Under the pieces are notes generated by a model. That model saw only the letters and a list, made by a program, of their open reading frames with translations. It made no database searches and had not been told where the DNA came from. Shown here one piece after another: positions 17,148-45,240 of a stretch of DNA of 64,000 nt (positions within the stretch are counted from its first letter, which is position 1; each line of letters opens with the position of its first letter). This DNA comes from Escherichia coli (GTDB lineage: Bacteria > Pseudomonadota > Gammaproteobacteria > Enterobacterales > Enterobacteriaceae). The translations under genes and the position numbers were made by a program. The stretch lies in assembly GCF_003334405.1 (NCBI RefSeq), contig NZ_QOWM01000014.1. One strand, given 5' to 3'.

Positions 17148-19694
17148 TCACGAAAAATATTGCTGTAATAGCGGCGTATCGTGATCCTGATTGGCAGGCG
17201 GCATGTTACCGATAGATTTTGTGCGGAACGGAATCACCTGTTCACGACCATCAACCTTCACAATCTGATAGAACTGCGGCAGGTTGAAGTTGATGAAGCT
17301 TGAGCCGTAGGTAAAACGGTCATGCGATGACGAGTAGAAGCGACTGACGTCACGTACCAGCTCCTCTTTGCTGCCTTCGCAGTGGTGATATACCTCAACC
17401 CGGTTGCTTTCGTCGAGAATGTAGATATTAAAGCCATTCTCGTCTTGCGTTTCTTCGAAAAAGAACTGGATGATCCCTTCGCTGGCAAAGCCGTCCACCA
17501 CCGCCGGTAATTTGACGTGATTGGTTTCAACCTGCACTGACAGGCCGTGCAGTTTGTTATGCGAAATCGCGCCATAAAACTCGATGGCGTTTTCCAGTTT
17601 CTGTACCGATACATTCAGGCGTTCGAAGAACAACCCCCAGGTTTGACCAGAAACGCGCAGCGCCTTGAAACGCCCGGTTTCCTGGCGGGTGCTGGAAAGA
17701 CGCAATTCAATACACTCAGAAACCAGTTGCTGCACGCGAGTACGAATTAAGCCGCGCAGATGCTGGCTATAACAGAAGACTTCCACGCTATCTGGCGGTG
17801 CGGCGTCCTGATGCATTTTGCCGAGAATAGTTTTCAGGGCTTCGATCATCGATTGCTCGCCGTTGAAGTGCAGCGTACGCACTTCGTTCCACGAGTTGCG
17901 GTACAGCAGGTCAACGCTACCTACCAGGCAATTTTGATTCTCGCCAAAGCTGAAGACATCCAGCTTACGGAAATCGAAATGCACCACCTGATTGCGGAAC
18001 GCCGCTGTCGGGTCATATTCCAGGTTAACGATAATCGCCAGATGGCGGATCTCACACGGGCTGTAGAGCGCCTTCGGTGTCGGTGCAGGTAAGCGCAGCG
18101 GGAAATGGTGCGACACGTCGGCGACCATCTCCTGCAACTTAGGCAAATCGACAATGCCGTTACCTTTAATATACAAACGGGTGCGCGAGGTCAGCAGGCC
18201 GTTAAACCATGCCCACGCCACCAGTTTATTCAGGTAACGGTTATATTCCAGCGGCTGATGGCTGATGATCGACTCAATATTTGGCGCGCGGTTATACAGA
18301 TACCAACCTGAACGGTTAGCCCGGCCCGGCGGCACATAAATAAAGGTCAGATTCGGTTCCGAGAGATCGGGTGAAATCTGCGGGTTTACCAGCGTCACTT
18401 TACCTGGTAATGCTTCAAACGCGGCATACAGCTTACGCGTCAGCACGCCGATATCCTGCGGACTGGCGGAGACGCTAAGGTTATTGCGACGCGCAAAGCG
18501 GATCAGATTACGGTAGCTCTGCATCATCGCGTCGAGCAACTCGTTGTGCGCCTCACGCACCTGATCAATCTTCCAGTTAGCGCGGTTATCGAGCATTGCC
18601 AGACGAGCTTCGTCCCAACCCCACTCGCTCACTAACTGGCTCAACACTGCGCGACGCCAGCCTACGCAGGCGCGTTCACGGCTGAGCTTTTCGCACACTT
18701 TTAAATAGAAGCAGCGACGTACTAAATCCAGACGGGTAAAATCTTCAATCGCCGTCAGGTATTCAGTAACACGCTCCAGCATCATGCAGTATGGATCGAG
18801 ACCAAACGATACAATCTCGCCGTCGTGCAAACGCTGTTTGATATCTTTCGCCAGCAGACGTGGGTTCGGGTATTCCCAGGAATAGGCTTCCAGCAGCAGT
18901 GTTTTCAGTACCGCTTTGTATGGGGAATCGATACTCTTGTAGAGCTGCCAAAGGCTGGCACCAAAGTACTCTTCAGCAGAAAGCGAGCTTAAGCCACCGA
19001 GATCCAGCCATTCATTTGGCGTCAGCACGCCCTGCGCGTAAAGCGTCATCACATAGTCGTCGTAATGCTCTTCTTCGTCGCACGGCACCATATTCCACAG
19101 AATACGCTTACCGGCGAGACGCACGGCGGTACGATAAAATTCGTCAAGCAGCAGTATATGCTGGGTGGAGCCACAATCTTCGCCCCCCAGGCTGCCGCTT
19201 TCATTATGACGGAAGCGGTTTTCATCAATCAGGAAGAAGCTGACTTCCACACCCAGCGAGGCGGCCCAGTTTTCCAGCAGGCTACATTTACGTTGTAGCA
19301 ATTGGCGCTCTTCGCTATCGAGCCAGGATTGATGACAGACCCAGATATCCAGGTCAGAGGAACAACTTTGCCCTACGGACGAGGTGCTGCCCATGGTGTA
19401 TACACCAGTAATTGGAAGCTCACCTTTCGGCGGATCCTGTACTGACATTCCACGATACAGTTCAAGCTCGTTCAGGTAGTGGCGTTGAGTTTCATCAGGC
19501 GTGTAAAGGCAAATGCCTTTGGGAACGTTACCATCAAGGTAACCCGGCATTAGCGGATGGTGATAGTGCAACAATGTCGGCAGTAGACTGTAGACCTGTT
19601 GGAATGCAGGCCCCATAGCAGCAAGCGCGCGATCCACACGCAATTGATTTATGGCATCCAGTCTCTGTTTCAGAGTCTCAATATAGAGGTACAA
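17148..19694 (-). CDS. cyaA: class I adenylate cyclase
   Basis: 848-aa [30 protein letters not shown]...; the first codon is TTG (plus-strand caa at 19692..19694), as known for cyaA. Confidence 0.92.
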
Positions 19695-19847
19695 GACGTA
19701 TCGCCTGATTTGCTACCCGTCATGACTGTGATTCCGCCAACATCAACGGTAACACGCGGCATTCGGGATATTTCGTATGTCAAAGGTAACCGTTACCACT
19801 TTTCGCGCCTGGTTTTTTTAGTTTCACGACGAAAAAATGGTCTAAAA

Positions 19848-19865
19848 CGTGATCAATTTAACACC
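19848..19865. promoter_or_regulatory. candidate CRP site in the cyaA promoter region
   Basis: cgtgatcaatttaacacc resembles TGTGA-N6-TCACA; cyaA is known to be repressed by cAMP-CRP. Position counted by eye. Confidence 0.4.
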
Positions 19866-20080
19866 TTGCTGATTGACCGTAAAGAAAGATGCGCTACATA
19901 CAAGTGTAGCACCGTTTATTCTCTGTAAATTCCTTATTACAACGGCGTGAAACGCCTGTCAGGATCCACTGCCAGACCTCATTTTACGGTTTGCGCAGGC
20001 GTCTACGTTTCACCACAACACTGACATCACTCTGGCAAGGATGTTAGGATGGACCACGGATGATAATGACGGTAACAAGC

Positions 20081-21022
20081 ATGTTAGACAATGTTTTAAG
20101 AATTGCCACACGCCAAAGCCCACTTGCACTCTGGCAGGCACACTATGTCAAAGACAAGTTGATGGCGAGCCATCCGGGCCTGGTCGTTGAACTGGTACCG
20201 ATGGTGACGCGCGGCGATGTGATTCTTGATACGCCGCTGGCGAAAGTAGGCGGAAAAGGCTTATTTGTAAAAGAGCTGGAAGTCGCGCTCCTCGAAAATC
20301 GCGCCGATATCGCCGTACACTCAATGAAAGATGTGCCGGTTGAATTCCCGCAAGGTCTGGGACTGGTCACTATTTGTGAGCGTGAAGATCCTCGCGATGC
20401 CTTTGTGTCCAATAACTATGACAGTCTGGATGCGTTACCGGCAGGCAGTATCGTCGGGACGTCCAGTTTACGTCGCCAGTGCCAACTGGCTGAACGCCGT
20501 CCGGATCTGATTATCCGCTCCCTGCGCGGCAACGTCGGCACTCGCCTGAGCAAACTGGATAACGGCGAATACGATGCCATCATTCTTGCCGTAGCCGGAC
20601 TAAAACGTTTAGGTCTGGAGTCACGTATTCGCGCCGCGTTGCCACCCGAGATTTCTCTTCCGGCGGTAGGACAAGGTGCGGTGGGTATTGAATGCCGCCT
20701 TGATGATTCACGCACTCGCGAGCTGCTTGCCGCGCTGAATCACCACGAAACTGCACTGCGCGTTACCGCAGAACGCGCCATGAATACCCGTCTCGAAGGC
20801 GGATGTCAGGTGCCAATTGGTAGCTACGCCGAGCTTATTGATGGCGAAATCTGGCTGCGTGCGCTGGTCGGCGCGCCGGACGGTTCGCAGATTATTCGCG
20901 GTGAACGCCGCGGTGCGCCGCAAGATGCCGAACAAATGGGGATTTCGCTGGCAGAAGAGCTACTGAATAACGGCGCGCGCGAGATCCTCGCTGAAGTCTA
21001 TAACGGAGACGCCCCGGCATGA
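20081..21022 (+). CDS. hemC: porphobilinogen deaminase (hydroxymethylbilane synthase)
   Basis: ORF 20060..21022; recognised 313-aa HemC starts [19 protein letters not shown] at the internal ATG. Confidence 0.92.
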
Positions 21023-21780: not shown

Positions 21781-22986
21781 ATGACGGAACAAGAAAAAAC
21801 CTCCGCCGTGGTTGAAGAGACCAGGGAGGCCGTGGACACCACGTCACAACCTGTCGCAACAGAAAAAAAGAGTAAGAACAATACCGCATTGATTCTCAGC
21901 GCGGTGGCTATCGCTATTGCTCTGGCGGCGGGCATCGGTTTGTATGGCTGGGGTAAACAACAGGCCGTCAATCAGACCGCCACCAGCGATGCCCTGGCTA
22001 ACCAACTGACGGCATTGCAAAAAGCCCAGGAGAGCCAAAAAGCCGAGCTGGAAGGCATTATTAAGCAACAAGCTGCACAACTTAAGCAGGCGAATCGTCA
22101 GCAAGAAACGCTGGCAAAACAGTTGGATGAAGTCCAACAAAAGGTCGCCACCATTTCCGGCAGCGATGCTAAAACCTGGCTGCTGGCTCAGGCCGATTTT
22201 CTGGTGAAACTCGCCGGACGGAAGCTGTGGAGCGATCAGGACGTCACGACCGCTGCAGCGTTGCTGAAAAGTGCAGACGCCAGCCTGGCGGATATGAATG
22301 ACCCGAGTCTGATTACCGTTCGTCGGGCAATTACCGATGATATCGCCAGCCTTTCTGCAGTATCGCAGGTGGATTATGACGGCATCATCCTTAAGCTTAA
22401 TCAGCTTTCAAATCAGGTAGATAACCTGCGTCTGGCCGATAATGACAGCGATGGTTCGCCGATGGATTCAGACGGTGAAGAGCTTTCCAGTTCCATCAGC
22501 GAATGGCGTATCAATCTGCAAAAAAGCTGGCAGAACTTTATGGACAACTTCATTACGATTCGCCGTCGTGATGACACCGCCGTACCGCTGTTAGCGCCAA
22601 ATCAGGATATCTATCTGCGCGAAAATATTCGCTCTCGCCTGCTGGTCGCAGCACAAGCTGTACCGCGTCACCAGGAAGAGACTTATCGCCAGGCGCTGGA
22701 GAACGTCTCCACCTGGGTACGTGCTTACTACGATACTGATGATGCCACCACCAAAGCGTTCCTCGACGAGGTGGACCAGTTAAGCCAGCAAAATATCTCG
22801 ATGGATCTTCCGGAAACCCTGCAAAGCCAGGCGATGCTGGAAAAACTGATGCAGACTCGCGTGCGTAACCTGCTGGCACAACCGGCAGCGGGGACAACGG
22901 AAGCTAAACCTGCACCTGCACCTGCACCTGCACCTGCACCTGCACCGCAAGCTGATACTCCGGCAGCCGCGCCGCAAGGAGAATAA
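21781..22986 (+). CDS. hemX: HemX membrane protein
   Basis: 401-aa ORF with one N-terminal TM segment, a coiled-coil-like Q/A-rich region and a C-terminal [11 protein letters not shown] tract. Confidence 0.88.
22909..22938 (+). repeat. in-frame hexanucleotide tandem repeat (CCTGCA)x5 within hemX
   Basis: Direct read of cctgcacctgcacctgcacctgcacctgca followed by ccgcaa; encodes (Pro-Ala)5. Confidence 0.85.
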
Positions 22987-24185: not shown

Positions 24186-24233
24186 TTCCTTCTCACCCGG
24201 AGGCAAGCACCTCCGGGGCCTTCCTGATACATA

Positions 24234-24440
24234 AAAAAACGCCTGCTCTTATTACGGAGCAGGCGTTAAAACAGGTCTGTATGACAACAAGTGGGTGCTT
24301 CACTCAACGTTGTGTCCATGGTGTCTGATGAGGCATAAGCGACATCTGTCAGTGGACGATAAGCACCGTAAACGGCTCTGCGTCATTCCGGAGTTTATGA
24401 GGCACTAAGGCGAACATAAGAGATGGAATGAGCATCTACT
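24234..24440 (-). ncRNA. glmZ: small RNA GlmZ (SraJ/RyiA), regulator of glmS
   Basis: The minus strand reads GUAGAUGCUCAUUCCAUCUC... at the 5' end and ends in the hairpin CGCCUGCUCCGUAAUAAGAGCAGGCG plus a U7 tail, matching the GlmZ sequence as I recall it; located between hemY and aslA as expected. Confidence 0.85.
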
Positions 24441-28058: not shown

Positions 28059-28135
28059 TTGGTCGGCGAGAGAGGATTCGAACCTCCGACCCACTGGTCC
28101 CAAACCAGTTGCGCTACCAAGCTGCGCTACTCGCC
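28059..28135 (-). tRNA. proM: tRNA-Pro (UGG)
   Basis: 77-nt reverse-complement match to the tRNA-Pro sequence ending CCA. Confidence 0.95.
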
Positions 28136-28177
28136 GAAATACTGCTTTTTGAATTTTTAGTTCAATTCTTTAAAGTC

Positions 28178-28264
28178 GTGGTGCGAGGGGGGGGACTTGA
28201 ACCCCCACGTCCGTAAGGACACTAACACCTGAAGCTAGCGCGTCTACCAATTCCGCCACCTTCG
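28178..28264 (-). tRNA. leuT: tRNA-Leu (CAG)
   Basis: 87-nt reverse-complement match including the long variable arm and C8 run. Confidence 0.95.
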
Positions 28265-28284
28265 CATTGTCACAACTTCTAATA

Positions 28285-28361
28285 ATGGGGTGGCTAATGG
28301 GATTCGAACCCACGACAACTGGAATCACAATCCAGGGCTCTACCAACTGAGCTATAGCCAC
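28285..28361 (-). tRNA. hisR: tRNA-His (GUG)
   Basis: 77-nt reverse-complement match (GGUGGCUAUAGCUCAGUUGGUAGAGC...). Confidence 0.95.
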
Positions 28362-28418
28362 CACTACAAATCTTGTTACGCGGTATTACTACCACCGCAG
28401 CTCAAGCGCCGGGACTAA

Positions 28419-28496
<78 letters not shown>

Positions 28497-30174: not shown

Positions 30175-30915
30175 TCATAGGTTGCCGGTGTAGTGCCAGC
30201 GTAAATAACGCAGCAAACGAAGCTGACGCTTAATGCGGCTCGGCTGCGAAAGCAGGCGGTAGAGCCACTCCAGCCCCAGCGTTTGCCAGATTTTCGGTGC
30301 GCGTTTTACGTGACCGGTGAAAACATCGTAAGTCCCGCCAACGCCCATATACAGCGCATCTGGATGTACCAGACGGCAGTCGCGCATGATGATCTCCTGC
30401 TTTGGCGATCCCATCGCAACGGTGACGATTTGCGCACCGCTGGCATGAATGCGTTCAAACAGCGCCTGACGCTGCTCGGGTTTAAAATAACCATCCTGAC
30501 TGCCAACGATATTCACATTCCACTGGTTGCGCAGTTTAGCTTCAGTTTGCGCCAGCACTTCAGGTTTACCGCCCACAAGAAATACCGGCGTCCCTTCTTT
30601 GCCTGCGCGCGCCATCAGCTCTTCCCAGAGATCGGCACCGGCAACGCGGGAAACCTGCGCCTGCGGGTACTTTTTACGTACTGAACGTACAACGCTGATG
30701 CCATCCGCATATTTAAATTCGGCAGCGTTAATTAACTCCCTGACCTCGGCGTTATCTTCAATAGTCAGCATTTTTTCAGCATTAATGGCAACCAGCGTTC
30801 CCTGCTTAAGCTGCCCGTCAGCAAACAGATAATCGAGGGCGTGCTGCATATCACGCCAACCAATCAACTGTAAGCCACGCAGCGTATAGGTTGGTGCCGT
30901 GGTGTTGTTATTCAT
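30175..30915 (-). CDS. wecG: UDP-N-acetyl-D-mannosaminuronic acid transferase
   Basis: 246-aa ORF; recognised WecG (RffM); last gene of the ECA cluster. Confidence 0.9.
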
Positions 30916-44780: not shown

Positions 44781-45110
44781 TTACGCCAGGTTAGCGTCGA
44801 GGAACTCTTTCAACTGACCTTTAGACAGTGCACCCACTTTGGTTGCCGCCACTTCACCGTTTTTGAACAGCAGCAGAGTCGGGATACCACGGATGCCATA
44901 TTTCGGCGCAGTGCCAGGGTTTTGATCGATGTTCAGTTTTGCAACGGTCAGTTTGCCCTGATATTCGTCAGCGATTTCATCCAGAATCGGGGCGATCATT
45001 TTGCACGGACCGCACCACTCTGCCCAGAAATCGACGAGGATCGCCCCGTCCGCTTTGAGTACATCCGTGTCAAAACTGTCGTCAGTCAGGTGAATAATTT
45101 TATCGCTCAT
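44781..45110 (-). CDS. trxA: thioredoxin 1
   Basis: Track ORF 44781..45215; the recognised 109-aa TrxA starts [13 protein letters not shown] with the WCGPC active site. Confidence 0.95.
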
Positions 45111-45240
45111 ATATAACTCCACAGGAATAAGCCTGGCGTGTTGGTTTCGTTGTTGGTGTAACATTAACCAACTAAAGGTTGACTTTATTTCACCGGATAC
45201 GCTTTCGTAAAGCAATAGTAAGCTGATATTCTACCACACT

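What the first reader, a model, noticed from the sequence alone, without database searches (positions are those of the whole stretch)
19692..19865. cyaA begins with a TTG codon and has a CRP-like site upstream
The 848-aa adenylate cyclase frame only reaches full length if initiated at TTG (plus-strand caa at 19692..19694). About 150 bp upstream is cgtgatcaatttaacacc, which resembles a CRP half-site pair. This fits known weak translation initiation and cAMP-CRP feedback for cyaA.
Basis: partly seen in the sequence, partly recalled or inferred. Interest (0 to 1): 0.2.

Follow-up and report, generated by a model that had tools for sequence, protein, structure and literature searches.

The report
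Known cyaA TTG start and CRP operator
This is the textbook control region of the E. coli adenylate cyclase gene: a weak TTG start codon, and a CRP-binding site on the main promoter that lets cAMP-CRP turn down its own synthesis. It is real and strongly conserved, but it has been known since the 1980s.

Summary
Both parts of the observation are correct at the stated coordinates. The 848-aa class I adenylate cyclase ORF (17148..19694, minus strand) starts at TTG 19694..19692, which is the first possible start after an in-frame TAG. The 16-mer TGTTAAATTGATCACG (19863..19848, cyaA strand) lies 154-169 nt upstream.

The CRP match alone is not statistically special in 64 kb. About 4 hits this good are expected by chance and 3 are seen. 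It is still a genuine site, for three reasons:
- The identical 16-mer is the MEME-called site under a CRP ChIP-seq peak at hemC/cyaA in ETEC H10407.
- Its PWM score falls within the range of sites bound in vivo.
- It is invariant in 78 Enterobacteriaceae sequences, although its distance to the TTG varies from 108 to 179 nt.

The TTG is present in 78 of 78 sequences. Coding periodicity starts right after it. The Shine-Dalgarno pairing is weak (-2.9 kcal/mol). The translation initiation region shows the strongest synonymous constraint in the first 250 codons.

The literature reports relative expression of 1:2:6 for UUG:GUG:AUG (Reddy 1985) and repression of cya by cAMP-CRP (Aiba 1985). The site covers the conserved -10 hexamer, which implies promoter occlusion.

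Verdict: confirmed, interpretation supported, already known, low interest.

The parts
17148..19694 (-). cyaA coding sequence, 848 aa plus stop; class I adenylate cyclase
   Evidence: ORF list and translation. NCBIfam NF006977 matches 1-848/848 at 2048 bits against a cut-off of 1761. The control region (window 19600-20100) is 100% identical to MG1655, where b3806 starts at the same TTG.
19692..19694 (-). TTG (UUG) initiation codon of cyaA
   Evidence: First start-type codon after the in-frame TAG seven codons upstream. TTG in 78/78 Enterobacteriaceae sequences. RefSeq/PGAP annotates the same start in MG1655 and in the most divergent E. coli record. Literature: UUG:GUG:AUG = 1:2:6.
19653..19710 (-). 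Conserved translation initiation region, from -16 to codon 14. It includes a weak Shine-Dalgarno AGG at 19704..19706, 9 nt before the TTG.
   Evidence: Positions -16..-1 are nearly invariant. Codons 1-14 have the lowest synonymous diversity of all 237 14-codon windows in the first 250 codons: 0.26 against a median of 0.94 bits. SD:anti-SD duplex is -2.9 kcal/mol, rank 47 of 58 annotated genes in the region.
19695..19848 (-). Inferred 5' untranslated leader, about 150 nt; the 5' end is inferred from the -10 hexamer, not measured
   Evidence: Poorly conserved and full of indels. The distance from the CRP site to the TTG is 108-179 nt and falls in all three mod-3 classes, so it is non-coding. Fold z-score -0.22. 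No Rfam match.
19848..19863 (-). CRP (CAP) binding site core, TGTTAAATTGATCACG. The 22-mer AGGTGTTAAATTGATCACGTTT is at 19845..19866.
   Evidence: 8/10 to TGTGA-N6-TCACA. PWM 11.03 bits, third best in the window. Identical 16-mer reported under the hemC/cyaA CRP ChIP-seq peak in ETEC H10407. TGTTA[A/G]ATTGATCACG in 78/78 relatives.
19855..19860 (-). Putative -10 hexamer TAAATT of the main cyaA promoter (P2), lying wholly inside the CRP site
   Evidence: Read from the sequence. Invariant across relatives. Together with the -35 hexamer it gives 8/12 to consensus, below the 9/12 threshold of the promoter scanner, so it was not called. The assignment to P2 rests on my recollection of Roy 1983 and Aiba 1985.
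19878..19883 (-). Putative -35 hexamer TTTACG, 17 bp upstream of the -10
   Evidence: Read from the sequence. Invariant in the upstream segments, apart from single-base changes in a few sequences.
19891..19912 (.). Conserved inverted repeat TGCTAC-N8-GTAGCGCA just upstream of the -35; function unknown
   Evidence: Flagged as terminator-like on both strands. The arms are conserved in 39 distinct sequences, but only 4 pairs are kept and there is no covariation. Unique in the window.
19727..19742 (.). Second CRP-like 16-mer in the leader (TGTGATTCCGCCAACA on the plus strand); judged a chance match
   Evidence: 2 mismatches. 8.8 bits, with about 15 such hits expected per 64 kb. Lies in the unconserved, indel-rich part of the leader.

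Best explanation
This is the native control region of the E. coli class I adenylate cyclase gene cyaA. Two independent brakes keep the enzyme scarce.

(1) Transcription. The main sigma-70 promoter (-35 TTTACG, 17-bp spacer, -10 TAAATT) carries a CRP site, TGTTAAATTGATCACG, that covers the -10 hexamer and the expected start point. When cAMP rises, cAMP-CRP binds there and excludes RNA polymerase. cAMP therefore represses synthesis of its own synthase, which is negative feedback.

(2) Translation. The roughly 150-nt leader ends in a weak Shine-Dalgarno (AGG, 9-nt spacing) and a UUG start codon, so each mRNA is translated poorly.

Shown here:
- the identity of the gene;
- TTG as the only full-length start, and its conservation;
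- coding periodicity beginning at the TTG;
- nucleotide-level constraint centred on the initiation region;
- the CRP site's score, its conservation, and its overlap with the conserved hexamers.

Taken from the literature:
- CRP occupancy in vivo;
- repression of cyaA by CRP;
- the 1:2:6 effect of the start codon.

Inferred: the exact transcription start, and occlusion as the mechanism of repression.
For: Gene identity: NF006977 matches 1-848/848 at 2048 bits. The stretch 19600-20100 is 100% identical to MG1655 cyaA/hemC and is present in 5426/5426 complete E. coli genomes.

Start codon: TTG is the first start after an in-frame stop. It is TTG in 78/78 relatives, which share the same first 30 aa. 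Variable columns in codons 1-26 fall 3/0/17 by codon position, and L18 and V20 are not conserved as start codons. Synonymous diversity is lowest in codons 1-14, rank 1 of 237 windows. The SD is weak at -2.9 kcal/mol, rank 47/58, and cyaA is one of only two TTG starts among 58 neighbouring genes. UUG:GUG:AUG = 1:2:6, with UUG conserved in gammaproteobacteria (PMC5499595).

CRP site: PWM 11.03 bits, third in the window, 0.023 expected in the intergenic spacer. Identical 16-mer under a CRP ChIP-seq peak (PMC4287617). Invariant while its distance to the TTG varies from 108 to 179 nt. The conserved block spans the -35, the -10 and the site. In the most divergent E. coli record, all five substitutions fall in the leader and none in the promoter/site or the initiation region.

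Feedback: Aiba 1985 is cited. PcyaA-gfp rises in a crp deletion. Crp represses cyaA in Y. pestis and P. mirabilis.
Against: - The CRP motif match is not enriched at window scale. One half-site (TGTTA) lacks the G at the fourth position of the TGTGA consensus, and the score is only at the 26th percentile of bound sites.
- The -35/-10 pair matches 8/12 and was not called by the promoter scanner.
- No transcription start was available: the Cappable-seq supplement is truncated and the primary papers are not held.
- cyaA was not recovered by genomic SELEX for CRP (PMC3105977).
- From memory of Inada et al. 1996 (title only): most CRP-dependent lowering of cAMP acts on enzyme activity, not on cya transcription, so the loop may be quantitatively minor.
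- All comparative data come from one family (Enterobacteriaceae, at least 92% aa identity), so the sequences are not independent.
Confidence: 0.95

Rival explanations
1. Translation really begins at a downstream in-frame codon (ATT5, TTG18, GTG20 or ATG27), and the TTG is merely the mechanical first start of the ORF.
For: ATG27 is invariant. TTG is a weak initiator and the SD is poor. No direct N-terminal data could be read here.
Against: - Residues 1-30 are identical in 78 sequences, with substitutions confined to synonymous positions from codon 4 on.
- TTG18 is CTG in 36% of sequences, and the third base of GTG20 varies in 31%.
- Nucleotide-level constraint is centred on -16..+42, not on codon 27.
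- Three NCBIfam class I cyclase models (NF006977, NF006979, NF006978) align from their position 1 to residue 1 of this ORF.
- Mutating the UUG changes the yield of the enzyme.
Confidence: 0.02
2. The CRP-like sequence is a chance resemblance with no regulatory role.
For: About 4 matches this good are expected per 64 kb and 3 are seen. The consensus search shows no enrichment. Genomic SELEX did not recover cyaA.
Against: - The exact 16-mer lies under a CRP ChIP-seq peak.
- It is invariant in 78 relatives while the flanking leader is riddled with indels.
- CRP represses cyaA in reporter and mRNA assays.
- Two of the other five top-scoring PWM hits in the window (rffM, ilvG) are also published ChIP peaks, so the PWM is informative.
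Confidence: 0.02
3. The CRP site mainly serves the divergent hemCDXY operon rather than cyaA.
For: The ChIP-seq table lists the peak as hemC/cyaA, because both gene starts lie within 300 bp. A promoter-like element faces hemC at 20021..20050.
Against: The site centre (about 19855.5) is roughly 200 bp from that hemC promoter-like element, far beyond the usual class I/II positions of -41.5 to -92.5. It instead coincides with the conserved cyaA -10. The literature attributes the site to cyaA repression.
Confidence: 0.04
4. The site is real, but the transcriptional loop contributes little to cAMP homeostasis. Control is mostly post-translational, through phospho-EIIA(Glc) acting on the cyclase. 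This is compatible with the best explanation and qualifies how much it matters.
For: The title of Inada et al. [quoted passage not shown] My recollection is that removing the CRP site barely changed cAMP levels. The site is of moderate strength.
Against: The site and promoter are invariant across Enterobacteriaceae, which argues for selection on them. Deleting crp raises both PcyaA-gfp activity and cAMP.
Confidence: 0.4

Closest known systems
E. coli K-12 cyaA P2 promoter / CRP operator and UUG start (Roy 1983; Aiba 1984, 1985; Reddy 1985)
   Same: It is this very locus. The sequence is identical to MG1655 over 19600-20100, with the same annotated TTG and the same CRP 16-mer as reported by ChIP-seq.
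   Different: Nothing in the control region differs. The window as a whole is not MG1655: it has 6 SNPs, an intact ilvG and a longer hemX hexamer repeat.
crp autoregulation and other CRP-repressed promoters
   Same: cAMP-CRP acts as a repressor in a negative feedback loop on a component of its own signalling pathway.
   Different: At cyaA the site sits directly on the -10 and start point, which implies simple occlusion (inferred). From memory, crp autorepression works indirectly through a divergent promoter.
Genes with conserved non-AUG starts used to limit or tune expression (infC AUU, spoT UUG, hupB GUG)
   Same: A phylogenetically conserved weak start codon on a regulatory gene (PMC5499595).
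   Different: No autoregulatory sensing of the start codon has been shown for cyaA, unlike IF3 and infC. Here the UUG is combined with a weak SD and an unusually invariant initiation region.

Membership tests
Class I adenylate cyclase (CyaA) | Full-length match to the curated equivalog model above its cut-off | tested here: met
   NF006977, 1-848/848, 2048 bits against a cut-off of 1761
Class I adenylate cyclase (CyaA) | Conserved enterobacterial context hemC <-> cyaA -> cyaY | tested here: met
   MG1655 annotation of the identical region. hemC and cyaA lie under the match in all listed E. coli genomes.
Class I adenylate cyclase (CyaA) | ATP to cAMP catalytic activity | not testable with these tools
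No solved structure of a relative was found by sequence.
CRP (CAP) binding site | Two inverted pentamers TGTGA/TCACA separated by 6 bp | tested here: met
   TGTTA-AATTGA-TCACG, 8/10
CRP (CAP) binding site | PWM score within the range of sites bound in vivo, and above local background | tested here: met
   11.03 bits, at the 26th percentile of 104 ChIP sites. 0.023 expected in the 386-bp spacer, but about 4 expected per 64 kb.
CRP (CAP) binding site | Occupied by CRP in vivo | tested here: met
   By literature look-up only. The ETEC H10407 ChIP-seq peak hemC/cyaA has the MEME site CGTGATCAATTTAACA, the identical 16-mer. No K-12 data were read.
CRP (CAP) binding site | Phylogenetic conservation beyond the flanking non-coding DNA | tested here: met
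   Invariant apart from one spacer base in 78 sequences. The adjacent leader is unalignable and its length varies by 71 nt.
CRP (CAP) binding site | CRP-dependent change in transcription of the target | not testable with these tools
   Literature only: Aiba 1985 (cited), the PcyaA-gfp reporter, Y. pestis and P. mirabilis.
UUG-initiated gene | No in-frame AUG/GUG/UUG between the upstream stop and this codon; downstream alternatives not conserved | tested here: met
UUG-initiated gene | Protein-coding constraint begins at this codon | tested here: met
   First 30 aa identical in all 78 sequences. Variable columns 3/0/17 by codon position in codons 1-26. Upstream indels break the frame.
UUG-initiated gene | Direct mapping of the N-terminus or of the initiating ribosome | not testable with these tools
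   Only second-hand: the Reddy 1985 mutagenesis quoted.
Sigma-70 promoter repressed by occlusion | Recognisable -35/-10 hexamers with 16-18 bp spacing | tested here: inconclusive
   TTTACG-17-TAAATT gives 8/12, below the scanner's 9/12 threshold, but the pair is conserved in nearly all relatives.
Sigma-70 promoter repressed by occlusion | Operator overlaps the -10 hexamer or the mapped transcription start | tested here: inconclusive
   Overlap with the putative -10 is shown by the sequence. The transcription start could not be obtained.

The most novel reading that the evidence does not exclude
Positions -16 to +42 around the UUG are almost invariant, including synonymous sites, and have the lowest synonymous diversity in the first 250 codons. 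This could reflect a conserved mRNA element: the SD GGCG is predicted to pair with UGCC in codons 13-14, and GUCUU, which includes the first two bases of the UUG, with AGAGAC. Such an element would gate ribosome access and add a regulated step to cyaA translation. Separately, the conserved inverted repeat TGCTAC-N8-GTAGCGCA upstream of the -35 could be the operator of an unidentified regulator. Neither is described in the papers I could read.
Probability: 0.12. Interest if true: 0.35.

Novelty: already known. Interest (0 to 1): 0.06.

Why it matters
This locus helps set the cellular level of cAMP, the signal for catabolite repression in enteric bacteria. It is a classic example of two layered brakes on a signalling enzyme: promoter occlusion by the enzyme's own downstream effector, and a weak UUG start. 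Confirming it adds no new biology. It does show that the first-stage reader can recognise a real regulatory architecture from raw sequence, and it documents how strongly the promoter/operator and the initiation region are conserved across Enterobacteriaceae. The only possibly new leads are the nucleotide-level constraint on the initiation region and the conserved inverted repeat upstream of the -35.

Tried and rejected
- Simple consensus scan for CRP sites: no enrichment, 15 hits against 25.8 expected. It was uninformative and was replaced by a PWM built from ChIP-seq sites. The first script timed out.
- Second CRP-like 16-mer in the leader (19727..19742): lower score and not conserved, so rejected as chance.
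- Terminator-like hairpin at 19891..19912: only four conserved pairs, inner stem not kept, no covariation. An RNA or terminator structure is not supported.
- Structured leader or riboswitch: fold z-score -0.22 and no Rfam hit even at E <= 1.
- Consensus fold of the initiation region: 12 pairs, all invariant, so it can be neither supported nor refuted.
- Upstream out-of-frame ATG (19723..19721, 17-codon uORF): in frame in Salmonella and Citrobacter but out of frame in E. coli, and it lies in unconserved sequence. Rejected both as a CyaA start and as a conserved uORF.
- Primary papers (Roy 1983, Aiba 1984, Reddy 1985, Thorner 1990) are not held.
- The PredCRP supplement has no site list with cyaA.
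- The Cappable-seq TSS file is truncated before this locus.
- Several papers that cite cyaA gave no position for the site.
- The finding is already known, and PMC5499595 already reports conservation of the UUG in other gammaproteobacteria.
Full report
**What is in the sequence.**
On the minus strand, the triplet TTG occupies 19694..19692 and opens an 848-codon ORF that ends at 17148. Reading the same frame upstream gives TAG-CAA-ATC-AGG-CGA-TAC-GTC. TTG is therefore the first ATG/GTG/TTG after a stop, and no longer product is possible. The plus-strand string cgtgatcaatttaacacc is at 19848..19865. On the cyaA strand it reads GGTGTTAAATTGATCACG, with its near edge 154 nt and the centre of its 16-bp core about 162 nt upstream of the TTG. 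The coordinates and the description in the finding are accurate.

**Identity of the locus.**
A 901-nt query around the finding matches all 5426 complete E. coli genomes. It lies over 'cyaA: class I adenylate cyclase' and 'hemC' in every listed record. The stretch 19600-20100 is 100% identical to MG1655, where cyaA (b3806) is annotated from this same TTG. The protein matches the NCBIfam equivalog NF006977 from residue 1 to 848 of an 848-position model, at 2048 bits against a cut-off of 1761. Two sister models also align from their position 1, so the N-terminus is the family's N-terminus. The whole window is 99.95% identical to MG1655 in reverse orientation.

**Is the CRP-like match more than chance?**
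Not on motif statistics alone.
- TGTGA-N6-TCACA with up to two mismatches occurs 15 times in the window, against 25.8 +/- 5.3 in shuffles.
- I built a symmetrised PWM from the 16-mers in Table 1 of a CRP ChIP-seq study of ETEC H10407 (PMC4287617). That gave 104 sites, after leaving out the three that lie inside this window.
- The cyaA site scores 11.03 bits, third best in the window and at about the 26th percentile of bound sites.
- About 4 hits this good are expected per 64 kb under i.i.d. and first-order Markov nulls, and 3 are observed. Only 0.023 are expected within the 386-bp hemC-cyaA spacer.

**Independent evidence that the site is real.**
The same table lists a high-confidence CRP peak assigned to hemC/cyaA. 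Its MEME-called site is CGTGATCAATTTAACA, letter for letter the plus-strand 16-mer at 19848..19863.

A scan of one genome per species returned 80 Enterobacteriaceae loci, including Escherichia, Salmonella, Citrobacter, Klebsiella, Raoultella, Enterobacter, Kosakonia, Kluyvera, Cedecea and others. In all 78 sequences analysed (the window plus 77 loci with a complete upstream flank), the best PWM hit in the 400 nt upstream of cyaA is TGTTA[A/G]ATTGATCACG. Its distance to the TTG ranges from 108 to 179 nt and falls in all three mod-3 classes.

The multiple alignment shows a solid conserved block running from an inverted repeat through TTTACG, a 17-bp spacer and TAAATT to just past the CRP site. 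After that comes a leader that barely aligns. In the most divergent E. coli record (94.6% identity), all five substitutions in this stretch fall in the leader. None falls in the promoter/site block or the initiation region.

**Evidence that TTG is the start.**
- TTG is present at the aligned position in 78 of 78 sequences, and the first 30 residues are identical in all.
- Among 77 distinct sequences, the variable columns in codons 1-26 fall 3/0/17 on codon positions 1/2/3. The three first-position changes are at Leu and Arg codons.
- The downstream candidates are not conserved as start codons: codon 18 is CTG instead of TTG in 36% of sequences, and the third base of codon 20 varies in 31%.
- Upstream of the TTG the open frame varies from 6 to 53 codons, with no conserved start codon. 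An ATG that is in frame in Salmonella and Citrobacter is out of frame in E. coli.
- Positions -16..-1 are nearly invariant, and codons 1-14 have the lowest synonymous diversity of all 237 14-codon windows in the first 250 codons: 0.26 against a median of 0.94 bits. Nucleotide-level selection is thus centred on this codon, as expected for a translation initiation region.
- The Shine-Dalgarno element is weak. It is AGG with 9-nt spacing, and its duplex with the 16S rRNA tail is -2.9 kcal/mol, rank 47 of 58 annotated genes in the region. cyaA is one of only two TTG starts among those 58 genes.

**Literature.**
[quoted passage not shown] It also states that UUG is conserved at cyaA in many Enterobacterales and other gammaproteobacteria.

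[quoted passage not shown] A recent study reports that a PcyaA-gfp reporter is derepressed in a crp deletion of MG1655. Crp represses cyaA in Yersinia pestis and Proteus mirabilis.

The primary papers are not in the held library. What I recall of the footprint extent and of the promoter names P1/P2 is therefore from memory and not verified here.

**Mechanism.**
The CRP core (19863..19848) contains the whole conserved TAAATT hexamer (19860..19855). It reaches the position where a start 5-7 nt downstream of that hexamer would fall, about 19848-19850. The conserved TTTACG lies 17 bp upstream. Bound cAMP-CRP would therefore occlude RNA polymerase, giving negative feedback of cAMP on its synthase.

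This step is inferred from the anatomy together with the literature. The hexamer pair is only 8/12 to consensus and was not called by the promoter scanner. I also could not obtain a mapped transcription start, because the Cappable-seq file is truncated. The second brake is translational: a weak SD plus UUG.

From memory of Inada et al. 1996 (title), the transcriptional loop contributes less to cAMP control than the regulation of enzyme activity does. Genomic SELEX did not recover cyaA as a CRP target, which fits a site of moderate affinity with one degenerate half-site (TGTTA).

**Alternatives examined.**
- A second CRP-like 16-mer in the leader (19727..19742) scores 8.8 bits, with about 15 such hits expected per window. 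It lies in unconserved sequence and is probably a chance match.
- The leader shows no unusual folding (z = -0.22) and no Rfam match.
- A consensus fold of the initiation region pairs the SD with codons 13-14 and the start codon with codons 10-11. Every pair is invariant, so the alignment can neither support nor refute it.
- The terminator-like inverted repeat at 19891..19912 keeps only its outer four pairs and shows no compensatory change. It looks more like a conserved DNA motif than an RNA hairpin, and it occurs nowhere else in the window.
- A role for the CRP site at the divergent hemC promoter is unlikely on spacing grounds, since the two are about 200 bp apart.

**Verdict.**
The feature is the long-known cyaA control region, so its novelty is 'already known' and its interest is low. 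The only mildly new leads are the exceptional nucleotide-level conservation of the initiation region and the conserved inverted repeat upstream of the -35. I rate both as low-probability, modest-interest possibilities.

Noticed in passing
window 19891..19912: Inverted repeat TGCTAC-N8-GTAGCGCA immediately upstream of the cyaA -35. It is flagged as terminator-like on both strands. The arms are conserved across 39 distinct Enterobacteriaceae sequences, but the inner stem is not kept and there is no covariation. It is unique in the window. It could be a protein-binding site or an upstream promoter element.
   Followed up: partly
window 19653..19710: The cyaA initiation region (-16 to codon 14) is almost invariant even at synonymous sites, with the lowest synonymous diversity of 237 windows. 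A predicted structure pairs the SD and the UUG with codons 10-14, but it is untestable by covariation because nothing varies.
   Followed up: partly
window 19727..19742: Second CRP-like 16-mer (TGTGATTCCGCCAACA, 8.8 bits) inside the cyaA leader. It is not conserved and is probably a chance match.
   Followed up: yes
window 19721..19723: Upstream ATG opening a 17-codon out-of-frame uORF that overlaps the cyaA TTG. The equivalent ATG is in frame in Salmonella, Citrobacter and E. albertii. The surrounding sequence is not conserved.
   Followed up: partly
window 59336..59337 (ORF 58667..60313, minus strand): Two extra bases (AT) relative to MG1655 restore an intact 548-aa ilvG. The window is therefore not K-12 MG1655, although it differs from MG1655 by only 6 SNPs and 2 insertions in 64 kb.
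   Followed up: partly
window 22908..22946: Hexanucleotide tandem repeat (ACCTGC, 6.5 copies) inside hemX. It is 24 bp (four units) longer than in MG1655, an in-frame length polymorphism.
   Followed up: partly
window 30840..30855 and 59349..59364: Two further 16-mers are identical to published ETEC CRP ChIP-seq sites, both intragenic: CGTGCTGCATATCACG in rffM (11.81 bits) and TGTAATGCTGGTAACA in ilvG (10.01 bits). The ilvG site lies 12 bp from the AT indel.
   Followed up: partly
window 57262..57277: The best CRP PWM hit in the window (GGTGAACGAGTTCACA, 12.07 bits) is not in the ETEC ChIP-seq table. By coordinate mapping to MG1655 it lies inside ilvD.
   Followed up: no
window 20060..20083: The hemC ORF can start at ATG 20060 (320 aa), but MG1655 annotates the third in-frame ATG at 20081 (313 aa, MLDNVLR...).
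   Followed up: no
window 24233..24439; 45081..45180; 60333..60625; 28063..28496; 63844..64000: Rfam gathering-score hits: GlmZ sRNA, the TrxA 5'UTR thermometer, 'Rev39 5'UTR' over the ilv leader region, four tRNAs (argX-hisR-leuT-proM in MG1655), and two tRNAs at the window end.
   Followed up: no
cyaA protein (window 17151..19694, minus strand): No chain in the 2026 PDB copy matches the class I adenylate cyclase by sequence at E <= 0.001. This classic enzyme apparently still lacks a solved structure that sequence search can detect.
   Followed up: no
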